A DNA stretch of 64,000 nt from the human T2T-CHM13v2.0 reference genome, Homo sapiens (GCF_009914755.1 NC_060941.1), one strand, 5' to 3'; counted from the stretch's first letter, positions 51,285 to 52,904 are shown. A program made the numbers and translations. The notes: a model not told the origin generated them from the sequence alone.

Positions 51285-51435
51285 AGGTGGGAAAAAGAAG
51301 CCACAGCAGGATGAATCGAGGGGGTCTGAACAGCTTCATTTTAAGAATGTGCCTACGGCAGGTCAGAGAACATAAGCAAACTGTCTAAGATCACATAGCC
51401 CAGTACAGAACTCTCACCAATATTATTGCCAGCAA
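51285..51435. repeat. Left arm of 151-bp non-Alu inverted repeat
   Basis: 131/151 ungapped identity to the reverse complement of 52754-52904. Confidence 0.93.
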
Positions 51436-52753
51436 CTGCTGTGTGTGTATTCTGCATAGAACCCTGTGCTGGGAATACAAAGAACCAACCTAATTATTAG
51501 AAGTTGTCAATTTAGTGGGAGATAAATAAATGAAAAAAATAAACTGAGATGAGCCTGAATTTTTGCATGAGAACTTGGAAAATTTTGGTGCCACTTCTAC
51601 AAATAAAAATTAGGAGGCCAGGCCTGGTGGCTCACGCCTGTAATCTCAGCACTTTGGGAGGCTGAGACGGGTGGATTATTTGAGGTCAGGAGTTCGAGAC
51701 GAGCCTGGCCAACATGGTGAAACCCTCTCTCTACTAAAAAAATACAAAAAAATGAGCTGGGTGTGGTGGCAGTCACCTGTAATCCCAGCTACTTAGAAGG
51801 CTGAAGCACGAAAATCACTTGATCCTGAACCTGGGAGCTGAAGGTTGCAGTGAGCCAAAATTGTGCCACTGCATTCCAGCCTGGGTGACAGAGCAAAACT
51901 CCATCTCAAAAAAAAAAATTAGGAGAAAGAGCCTGGTTCTATGATGAAGATGATATTAATTTTTAGACGTTGTGATACAGAATGTTTTTTCTAGACTATT
52001 CTGCCTTTAGTACATAAACATTTCATATTACATTATCAAATGGTCATATATATGGTAAAGCTTTTATTTACTTCATAGGTGACCAAATTATTGGCCTTGA
52101 CCATTAGGTCCAGAAAGTAAAATTGTGTACTTTCTTCTTTTTTTTTTTTTGAGATGGAGTTTCACTCTTGTTGCCCAGGCTGGAGAGCAGCAGCATGATC
52201 TCAGCTCACTGCAACCTCCGCCTCCTGGGTTCAAGTGATTCTCCTGCTTTAGCCTCCCATCTTTCTTTTTTTTAAAGAAAAAAGATGATTTATGAGCAAT
52301 TAAAAAAAAAATAGGCCAGGCGTGGTTGCACACACCTGTAATCCCAGCATTTTGGGAGGCTGAGGTGGGATCACTTGAGCCCAGGATTTTGAGACCAGCC
52401 TGGGCAACATAGTGAGATGTTGTCTCTAGTAAAAACTTAAAAATTAGCTGGAGGTGTTGGTGGGCGCCTGTGGTCCCAGCTACTCGGGAAGCTGAGGTAG
52501 GAGGATCGCTTGAGCCCAGGAAGTCAAAGCTACAGTGAACCATGACTGCACTACTCCATTCCAGCCTGGGTAACAGAGTAAGAGACCCTGTGTCAAAGAA
52601 ACCAAAAAGAAAAAAATAACTAGATTTTAAAAGGGAAAAAAAAAAAGAAGAGAAAGAAGTATCCACAAAACAGTGAAAGGCTAGATGGTCTCTATTAGGA
52701 AGAGAACCCTATAGTCTCCAACTTGGTACCAAGAATAAACACCAAAATTGCGA

Positions 52754-52904
52754 TTGCTGGCAATAATATTGGTGAGAGTTCTGTACCTGGCTGTGTGGCC
52801 TTAGGCAGTTTGCTTACCTTCTCTGACCTGCAGTAGGCATATTCTTAAAAGGGAGCTATGCAGAGTCCCTTGAATCATCCTGCTGTGGCTCCTTTTTCTC
52901 ACCT
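52754..52904. repeat. Right arm of 151-bp non-Alu inverted repeat (includes a MIR-like core)
   Basis: Manual alignment to 51285-51435. Confidence 0.93.

What the first reader, a model, noticed from the sequence alone, without database searches (positions are those of the whole stretch)
51285..52904. 151-bp non-Alu inverted repeat in BRCA1 intron 12: candidate long-range pre-mRNA duplex
Seen: 51285-51435 and the reverse complement of 52754-52904 align with no gaps at 131/151 (87%, hand count). The 33 bp nearest the spacer (GTACAGAACTCTCACCAATATTATTGCCAGCAA) are identical. The spacer is 1318 bp, over half of it Alu. Only ~45 bp of each arm resembles a MIR core, so two independent MIR insertions would not explain the match. 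In BRCA1-sense RNA the 20 mismatches are 5 G-U, 8 A-C and 7 other, and the first arm starts ~620 nt after the exon 12 donor. Established: A-C mismatches in long duplexes are preferred ADAR sites. Inference: an old local inverted duplication kept similar by arm-to-arm conversion or by selection for a stem affecting splicing or editing. I know of no description of it.
Basis: partly seen in the sequence, partly recalled or inferred. Interest (0 to 1): 0.8.

Follow-up and report, generated by a model that had tools for sequence, protein, structure and literature searches.

The report
Ordinary inverted duplication in BRCA1 intron
A 151-base stretch of a BRCA1 intron was copied in reverse orientation about 1.3 kb away, probably in early primates; it is real and found only at this locus, but it looks like ordinary, neutrally decaying DNA rather than a special RNA switch.

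Summary
51285-51435 and the reverse complement of 52754-52904 match without gaps at 131 of 151. The 33 bases nearest the spacer are identical, the spacer is 1318 bp, and 775 bp of it is common repeat.

The arms are not copies of a repeat family. A search of the whole genome finds only these two copies. A MIR profile built here covers only 47 bp of arm 2 and 38 bp of arm 1. In the 82 MIR-alignable columns, 22 of the 35 differing columns carry the same non-consensus base in both arms. The best reading is one local inverted duplication of a piece of intron that held an old MIR remnant.

Divergence is about 6.6% per arm. Neighbouring Alus show 5.1-7.1% non-CpG divergence, so neutral decay since an Alu-age event is enough to explain it.

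Nothing points to selection for a stem. Among the 13 transition differences, 5 give G-U and 8 give A-C in the sense RNA. The sense duplex is weaker than the antisense one.

The duplex (-225 kcal/mol) forms in isolation. It drops out of the minimum-energy fold once the adjacent Alu is included, at a cost of +36 to +61 kcal/mol.

Similar locus-specific inverted duplications turned up by accident at two other loci. Editing, duplex reads and cross-species data could not be examined. Interest is low.

The parts
51285..51435 (.). Arm 1 of the inverted duplication. It is the 3' arm in BRCA1-sense RNA.
   Evidence: 151 nt, 131 of 151 complementary to arm 2. Its only other genomic match is arm 2.
52754..52904 (.). 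Arm 2 of the inverted duplication. It is the 5' arm in BRCA1-sense RNA and lies 622 nt into the intron.
52778..52859 (+). MIR-like remnant inside arm 2. Its counterpart in arm 1 is 51330-51411 on the minus strand.
   Evidence: The MIR profile matches model positions 86-132 at 52786-52832, 15.2 bits, E 1.5e-4 in the window. There is an 82-bp colinear match to a full MIR copy on contig 11. Of the 82 columns, 47 equal the consensus in both arms, 22 are shared derived, 9 differ in arm 1 only, 3 in arm 2 only and 1 differs differently in each.
51403..51435 (.). The 33-bp stretch identical in both arms, at the spacer side. Its partner is 52754-52786.
   Evidence: The run-length test gives P = 0.10 for any run of this length.
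51237..51284 (.). Possible degraded outer extension of the homology. Its partner is 52905-52953. Uncertain.
   Evidence: The local alignment score was reached by 2 of 300 shuffles. nhmmer extends the match with low posterior. MAFFT needs indels there and identity is far lower.
51436..52753 (.). Spacer of 1318 bp. Common repeats (Alu) lie at 51597-51919, 52130-52259 and 52300-52621, and 543 bp is not common repeat.
   Evidence: The inner flanks show no significant homology: 60 of 300 shuffles reach the score.
52954..53232 (-). Alu just outside arm 2. It is transcribed before arm 2 and its pairing with the Alu at 52300-52621 encloses arm 2.
   Evidence: Including this Alu removes the arm duplex from the minimum-energy fold.
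50327..50640 (-). Old Alu-type repeat beyond arm 1 that pairs with the left half of the spacer Alu at 51597-51919 in the 3.3-kb fold.

Best explanation
This is a locus-specific inverted duplication. A stretch of about 150 bp of BRCA1 legacy intron 12 (possibly about 200 bp), which already contained a decayed MIR SINE remnant, was copied in reverse orientation a short distance away. If the spacer Alus arrived after the copy was made (their order relative to the duplication is not known), the original distance was about 0.5 kb; today it is 1.3 kb. The event is about as old as the neighbouring S-type Alus, that is, within the primate lineage. Both copies have since drifted apart neutrally. In the pre-mRNA the two arms can pair like any inverted Alu pair and may then be edited by ADAR. 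They have to compete with several longer Alu-Alu pairings that enclose one arm. The element leaves with the intron and has no dedicated function. Shown: the repeat, its uniqueness in the genome, the shared derived states, the divergence relative to local Alus and the predicted competition. Inferred: the mechanism of duplication (for example a template switch during replication or repair), the date in years and the absence of function.
For: (1) The arms match at 131 of 151 without gaps. (2) The whole-genome search gave only 2 first-look candidates, the arms themselves. A 231-nt query added one 69-bp, 78% hit that is an ordinary MIR copy scoring 127 bits to the MIR profile. As a positive control, an Alu-containing query gave 3968 candidates. 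(3) In the 82 MIR-aligned columns, 22 of the 35 differing columns carry the same non-consensus base in both arms, so the copy was made after most of the MIR's decay. (4) The arms differ at 20 of 151 positions (13.2%; K2P 0.148 by hand), about 6.6% per arm. Non-CpG divergence of local Alus is 6.9% (51616-51902), 5.1% (52980-53232) and 7.1% (52156-52259), and the sample median is 6.9% over 98 copies. (5) The ratio of 13 transitions to 7 transversions is the usual neutral spectrum. (6) There is no bias toward pairing in the sense RNA: 5 G-U against 8 A-C, and sense -225.1 against antisense -239.5 kcal/mol. (7) The window holds 145 inverted pairs of at least 120 nt within 5 kb. (8) Comparable locus-specific inverted duplications were met by accident at L015 (550-bp alignment, 90%, spacer 1411) and at L065 (about 180 bp, 150 of 184 with gaps). 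(9) Inverted duplicates are a described, abundant class: 4,315,271 in human with the settings of PMC5398296 (sections 6 and 12 read).
Against: No other species could be examined, so the date rests on a local Alu clock, and an older duplication kept alike by conversion cannot be excluded. The identical 33 bp at the inner end (terminal-run P = 0.01, post hoc), together with a possibly much more diverged outer extension, could be read as a gradient of identity left by conversion tracts. Arm 1 has 9 private changes against the MIR consensus and arm 2 has 3. This is uneven but not significant (two-sided binomial P about 0.15, by hand). Folding models forbid pseudoknots and ignore proteins and helicases, so the duplex may still form in some molecules. 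No editing or duplex-read data were available.
Confidence: 0.75

Rival explanations
1. The inverted repeat is older than it looks and has been kept alike by arm-to-arm gene conversion, without any RNA function.
For: The identical 33-bp inner end contrasts with 20 mismatches in the other 118 positions (terminal-run P = 0.01, post hoc). The possible outer extension is much more diverged. Together these would form a gradient of identity toward the spacer.
Against: P(any run >= 33) is 0.10. The outer extension is only marginally above shuffles, reached by 2 of 300. The divergence already fits neutral decay from an Alu-age event. Arms of 151 bp at 87% are short and diverged for efficient conversion; this last point is from general knowledge and was not tested.
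Confidence: 0.12
2. The arms are kept complementary by selection because the stem in BRCA1 pre-mRNA affects splicing or serves as an ADAR platform.
For: In isolation the sense arms give -225.1 kcal/mol, and 136 of 151 positions pair arm to arm in the 1620-nt fold. There are 8 A-C mismatches, and A-C is a favoured editing context (general knowledge). Long complementary intronic regions are enriched for editing sites: OR 13.2 for structures below -30 kcal/mol (PMC8052449, passages).
Against: G-U is not favoured over A-C among transitions (5 against 8), and the antisense duplex is the more stable one. The duplex is absent (0 of 151) from the minimum-energy fold in three contexts that include the adjacent Alu, and enforcing it costs +36.2, +38.2 and +60.6 kcal/mol. 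Both arms lie in one intron 622 nt from the nearest splice site, so no splice site or exon is enclosed. There are 145 other long inverted pairs in the window. 'BRCA1' does not occur in the main text of the two long-range-structure catalogues checked; their supplements were not seen.
Confidence: 0.05
3. The arms are two independent insertions of MIR, or of another core-containing SINE, in opposite orientations.
For: Both arms contain a MIR-core-like segment: 47 bp at 15.2 bits and 38 bp at 5.0 bits.
Against: Twenty-two of the 35 columns that differ from the MIR consensus carry the same base in both arms. The arms are 87% alike but only about 68% and 61% identical to the MIR consensus over the 82 columns. 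Identity continues outside the MIR-like part, including the 33 identical bases. A young subfamily carrying these shared states would have left other near-identical copies, and none was found.
Confidence: 0.02
4. The arms are the terminal inverted repeats of one DNA transposon, or members of some other interspersed family.
For: The layout is two long inverted ends around about 0.5 kb of non-Alu DNA.
Against: At 6-7% per arm such a family would be as young as S-type Alus, and its other copies would be easy to find. The genome search found none: 2 and 3 candidates, against 3968 for the Alu-containing control. I saw no target-site duplication at the ends; this is by eye and is weak evidence.
Confidence: 0.02

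Closest known systems
Local inverted duplicates of the human genome (Inverted Repeats Finder class; Warburton et al. 2004, recalled; Chen et al. 2017, PMC5398296, sections 6 and 12 read)
   Same: Two reverse-complementary arms around a spacer, arising at one locus by duplication. The arms can form a hairpin when transcribed. The class is abundant, including outside annotated repeats (0.82 per kb in non-repetitive DNA with their loose settings).
   Different: Today's 1318-nt spacer exceeds the 1000-nt limit of that catalogue, and would be 543 nt without the Alus. That study analysed intergenic cases, whereas this one is intronic. Arms of 151 nt are far longer than the typical catalogue entry, whose minimum is 10 nt.
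Inverted-repeat Alu (IRAlu) duplexes in introns and 3' UTRs, the main ADAR substrates
   Same: A long imperfect intramolecular duplex of more than 100 bp at 80-90% pairing within one transcript. The expected fate is the same: nuclear, edited, and removed with the intron.
   Different: The arms are not Alu and not members of any multi-copy family, so each arm has exactly one possible partner, whereas an Alu can choose among many. Here the surrounding Alu pairs out-compete it in the predicted fold.
Pairs of conserved complementary regions (PCCRs) that regulate splicing (Kalmykova et al. 2021, PMC8052449, passages read)
   Same: Long-range complementarity within a human intron.
   Different: PCCRs are defined by conservation and compensatory substitutions, which could not be tested here. 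This pair encloses no exon or splice site. It is much longer than those elements and looks like a young duplication.
MIR (mammalian-wide interspersed repeat) SINE copies
   Same: The central part of each arm matches the MIR core.
   Different: Only 38-47 bp match by profile, or 82 bp through a real copy. Intact MIR copies in the same window score 44-113 bits over 95-251 bp. The arms resemble each other far more than they resemble MIR.

Membership tests
MIR SINE (full or ordinary copy) | Colinear match to the MIR model over head, core and tail at the family's usual score | tested here: not met
   The profile was built from 112 genomic copies. Arm 2 matches model positions 86-132 only (15.2 bits) and arm 1 matches 89-126 (5.0 bits). 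Other MIR copies in the window score 44-113 bits. The segments either side of the core are not above shuffles: 122, 403, 188 and 141 of 500 shuffles reach the score (earlier profile).
MIR SINE (fragment) | Significant similarity to the MIR core | tested here: met
   Arm 2 scores E 1.5e-4 against the whole window. There is an 82-bp colinear match to a bona fide MIR copy on contig 11. That the fished family is MIR rests on my recall of the two motifs used.
Two independent SINE insertions | Differences from the family consensus are mostly private to each copy | tested here: not met
   Of 35 differing columns, 22 are shared, 9 are private to arm 1, 3 are private to arm 2 and 1 differs differently in each.
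Interspersed repeat family or DNA transposon with terminal inverted repeats | Many dispersed copies of similar divergence elsewhere in the genome | tested here: not met
   There are only two copies genome-wide: 2 of 2 candidates scored, and 3 of 3, the third being a plain MIR. The control query containing an Alu gave 3968 candidates. The search is BLAST-like and would miss copies below about 75% identity.
Interspersed repeat family or DNA transposon with terminal inverted repeats | Annotation in a curated repeat library (Dfam, RepeatMasker) | not testable with these tools
   No repeat library is on hand. Rfam gives only Alu-derived sub-threshold hits, none in the arms.
Local inverted duplicate | Two reverse-complementary arms at one locus, beyond chance, unique to that locus | tested here: met
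Local inverted duplicate | Spacer of at most 1000 nt (definition in PMC5398296) | tested here: not met
   The spacer is 1318 nt today, with 543 nt left when the 775 nt of common repeat are removed. Whether the Alus came after the duplication is inferred, not shown.
ADAR-edited intramolecular dsRNA (IRAlu-like) | A long stable duplex predicted within the transcript | tested here: inconclusive
   The duplex is -225.1 kcal/mol, and 136 of 151 positions pair in the 1620-nt and 1854-nt contexts. None of 151 pair in the 2201-nt, 2627-nt and 3316-nt contexts that include the adjacent Alu.
ADAR-edited intramolecular dsRNA (IRAlu-like) | Clustered A-to-G differences in RNA-seq | not testable with these tools
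   No editing database or reads are available.
Conserved long-range RNA structure (PCCR) | Conservation and compensatory substitutions across species | not testable with these tools
   No other mammalian genome is held. The single-genome proxy, G-U against A-C among transitions, is 5 against 8 and shows no support (by hand).

The most novel reading that the evidence does not exclude
In a fraction of BRCA1 pre-mRNAs the two arms do pair, each arm having exactly one possible partner, unlike the Alus around them. The duplex is edited by ADAR at its eight A-C mismatches. By competing with the Alu-Alu helices that enclose arm 2, it would alter how intron 12 folds and so affect exon 12-13 splicing efficiency. 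The identical inner 33 bp would then be a recent conversion tract or a selected nucleation site.
Probability: 0.05. Interest if true: 0.45.

Novelty: new member of a known kind. Interest (0 to 1): 0.12.

Why it matters
If the plain reading is right, this adds one dated, locus-specific inverted duplication to the map of a heavily studied cancer gene. It is useful as a caution for people interpreting deep-intronic BRCA1 variants, long-read alignments or editing calls in this intron, but it is not a new mechanism. A within-genome test (G-U against A-C among transitions, plus folding with real flanks) was enough to deflate a 'candidate functional stem' without cross-species data. If the arms did prove to be edited or to affect splicing, the pair would be a convenient non-Alu model duplex, because each arm has a single partner.

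Tried and rejected
1. Searching the genome with a DNA alignment of the two arms was not accepted. I used single-sequence queries instead.

3. I looked for homology beyond the arms. The inner flanks show none: 60 of 300 shuffles reach the score. There is none beyond the Alu at 52954-53232 either: 74 of 200. The outer 50 bp is only marginal: 2 of 300.

4. By eye I thought both outer flanks resembled a MIR tail. The improved MIR profile gave no hit there even with filters off and E up to 100, so I dropped the idea.

5. The first MIR profiles carried junk flanks and a poor tail. They were replaced by the profile.

6. Rfam at a lax threshold gave 22 hits, all Alu-derived or weak and below their gathering scores, and none in the arms.

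7. Literature. 'BRCA1' + 'intron 12' + 'inverted repeat' gave 2 papers, both irrelevant by title and abstract. 'BRCA1' + 'A-to-I' + 'intronic' + 'double-stranded RNA' + 'inverted' gave 29 papers, of which 12 were listed and none was about this locus. 'BRCA1' + 'mammalian-wide interspersed' + 'intron' + 'inverted' gave 9 papers, 8 listed, none relevant by title. The word BRCA1 occurs only in the reference list of PMC11263572 and not at all in the main texts of PMC10691357 and PMC8052449. Supplementary tables of these catalogues were not opened and could still list the pair.

A 50-kb request passed. The rate therefore rests on 231.5 kb and a single case.

Full report
OBSERVATION. The repeat is there exactly as described. 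The repeat finder lists arms 51285-51435 and 52754-52904, 151 nt, 87% complementary, 1318 nt apart. A base-by-base comparison gives 131 matches and 20 mismatches without gaps, 13 transitions and 7 transversions. The 33 positions next to the spacer are identical. That 33-mer occurs nowhere else in the window at up to 3 mismatches, and 0 of 100 shuffles gave a match. The gene table places the pair in the 8371-nt intron between the 89-nt exon (53527-53615) and the 172-nt exon (44984-45155), which is legacy intron 12 (legacy numbering recalled). Arm 2 begins 622 nt into the intron. Of the 1318 spacer bases, 775 are common repeat. Rfam's sub-threshold SRP-type hits identify them as Alu.

IS IT A REPEAT FAMILY? 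A BLAST-type search of the whole 3.1-Gb assembly with arm 1 returned two places only, the arm itself and arm 2 (87%, E 3.8e-44). The first look produced just 2 candidates. A longer query (52730-52960) at E up to 10 added one 69-bp, 78% match on contig 11. As a positive control for the tool, a query that contains an Alu produced 3968 first-look candidates.

To test the MIR idea I fished repeat copies from the same genome with two short motifs recalled as MIR. The 26-mer had 302 exact matches and its reversed control had 0. The degenerate 24-mer had 88 matches against 0. From these I built a 284-position profile from 112 copies. That profile finds ordinary MIR copies in the window at 44-113 bits over 95-251 bp. 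It covers only 47 bp of arm 2 (52786-52832, 15.2 bits, E 1.5e-4) and 38 bp of arm 1 (5.0 bits). The contig 11 hit is a normal MIR (127 bits, model positions 29-242). Its similarity to arm 2 runs colinearly over 82 bp, 52778-52859. So each arm contains a badly decayed MIR fragment of roughly 50-80 bp plus sequence that cannot be assigned to MIR. Earlier tests of the segments either side of the core were not above shuffles.

ONE DUPLICATION, NOT TWO INSERTIONS. In the 82 columns alignable to the MIR consensus, both arms equal the consensus in 47. Both carry the same non-consensus base in 22. Arm 1 alone differs in 9, arm 2 alone in 3, and both differ differently in 1. Two independent insertions would share few of their differences, whereas here 22 of 35 differing columns are shared. 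A young subfamily carrying these states would have left other near-identical copies, and there are none. The same copy-number argument removes a DNA transposon with long terminal repeats.

Homology does not continue into the spacer: 60 of 300 shuffles reach the score. It does not continue beyond the Alu at 52954-53232: 74 of 200. About 50 bp on the outer side may belong to the duplicated unit but is only marginal: 2 of 300 shuffles, with low posterior and indels.

AGE AND MODE OF DECAY. The arms differ at 13.2% of positions (K2P 0.148 by hand), about 6.6% per arm. Only one mismatch is a CpG transition (by hand). As a local clock I measured non-CpG divergence of Alus from a consensus of 144 sampled copies:
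- 6.9% for the spacer Alu at 51616-51902
- 7.1% for the fragment at 52156-52259
- 5.1% for the Alu at 52980-53232
- 14.6% for the older Alu at 52314-52583
- a median of 6.9% over the 98 long copies

The arms are therefore as diverged as one expects if they were copied at about the time S-type Alus were inserting. The subfamily name and its age of roughly 30-45 million years are recalled. Nothing has to be invoked to 'keep them similar'. The identical 33-base end is not compelling in itself: P = 0.10 for any such run and 0.01 for a terminal one, a post hoc test.

IS THERE A SIGN OF SELECTION FOR THE STEM? One test is possible within a single genome. If pairing in the BRCA1-sense RNA were protected, transition differences should favour the tolerated G-U over the disruptive A-C. 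The counts are 5 and 8. The antisense duplex is the more stable one, -239.5 against -225.1 kcal/mol. This is a weak test, but it points away from selection.

WOULD THE DUPLEX FORM? Alone, or in the 1620-nt and 1854-nt contexts, 136 of 151 arm positions pair arm to arm. Once the Alu at 52954-53232 is included, none of the 151 positions pair arm to arm. This Alu lies 50 nt from arm 2 and is transcribed just before it. The result holds in the 2201-nt, 2627-nt and 3316-nt contexts, and forcing the duplex costs +36.2, +38.2 and +60.6 kcal/mol.

In the 3.3-kb fold that Alu pairs with the Alu at 52300-52621 and so encloses arm 2. The Alu fragment at 52130-52259 pairs with 51597-51919. The left half of the latter pairs with the old Alu at 50327-50640. 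These partners are also closer and are made earlier in transcription. The models exclude pseudoknots and ignore proteins, so partial formation in vivo is not excluded.

Both arms lie in one intron and enclose no exon or splice site. The window holds 145 inverted pairs of at least 120 nt within 5 kb, the longest being 289 nt at 89%.

HOW UNUSUAL IS IT? The sample was 60 three-kb loci chosen for a MIR motif plus five 10-kb stretches. One of the 19 pairs is locus-specific.
- L015:209-748 / 2159-2703 is a 550-bp alignment at 90% with a 1411-nt spacer. Its first 250 bp or so is Alu, and the remaining 290 bp or so occurs only in these two arms genome-wide.
- A second case surfaced because two exact MIR-tail motifs lay 816 bp apart in opposite orientation. 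L065:1509-1692 / 2218-2388 matches at 150 of 184 with gaps. Both arms share the same junction of MIR tail, unique DNA and Alu 5' end.

One case in 231.5 kb is a very rough rate, on the order of ten thousand genome-wide with wide error. It agrees with the published picture that inverted duplicates are abundant in human DNA, including non-repetitive DNA (PMC5398296, sections 6 and 12 read).

LITERATURE. Three searches aimed at this locus found no description of it (details under Tried and rejected). Two catalogues of long-range pre-mRNA structure do not mention BRCA1 in their main text, and their supplements were not opened. Passages read in PMC12695637 state that most known long dsRNAs are inverted Alu repeats, that 8% of the immunogenic set come from other repeats, and that intronic ones are almost excluded from that set. 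I therefore regard this particular pair as probably undescribed, but of a described kind.

VERDICT. The further inference of maintenance by conversion or selection, and of a functional long-range duplex, finds no support in what could be tested and some evidence against it. The decisive data (primate alignments, editing sites, duplex reads, deletion assays) were out of reach. Interest is low.

Noticed in passing
L015:209-748 and L015:2159-2703 (G000:C1:20345716-20346255 and 20347666-20348210): Another locus-specific inverted duplication: a 550-bp alignment at 90% identity with a 1411-nt spacer. The first 250 bp or so of the arm is Alu. The other 290 bp or so matches only the two arms genome-wide, so the copy was made after the Alu inserted.
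   Followed up: partly
L065:1509-1692 and L065:2218-2388 (G000:C10:103695300-103699200): An inverted pair of about 180 bp, 150 of 184 matching with gaps. Both arms share the same junction of MIR tail, about 30 bp of unique DNA and the 5' end of an Alu. It is a third local inverted duplication, found because two exact MIR-tail motifs lay 816 bp apart in opposite orientation.
   Followed up: partly
window 27386-27674 and 30559-30847: This is the longest and best inverted pair in the window: 289 nt, 89% complementary, 2884 nt apart. It brackets the 88-nt BRCA1 exon at 30159-30246, the layout usually linked with exon skipping or back-splicing. I have not checked whether the arms are Alu or whether a circular RNA is known.
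   Followed up: no
window 53486-53519 and 53312-53340 (minus strand, BRCA1 sense): A GU-rich tract starts 8 nt after the exon 12 donor, and a complementary CA-rich tract lies about 145 nt further into the intron. In the 3.3-kb fold these two regions pair with each other (bins 53400-53500 with 53300, 62 pairs). This local hairpin sits right beside the 5' splice site.
   Followed up: partly
window 51330-51411 versus 52778-52859: Measured against the MIR consensus, arm 1 carries 9 private changes and arm 2 carries 3. The imbalance is not significant (P about 0.15), but it would fit an error-prone copying step if arm 1 is the copy.
   Followed up: no
window 1-64000: In the window 81 inverted pairs pass the thresholds of at least 100 bp, at least 80% identity and at most 5 kb apart. 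In 231.5 kb of other sampled human DNA only 19 do. This reflects how unusually Alu-dense this part of BRCA1 is.
   Followed up: no
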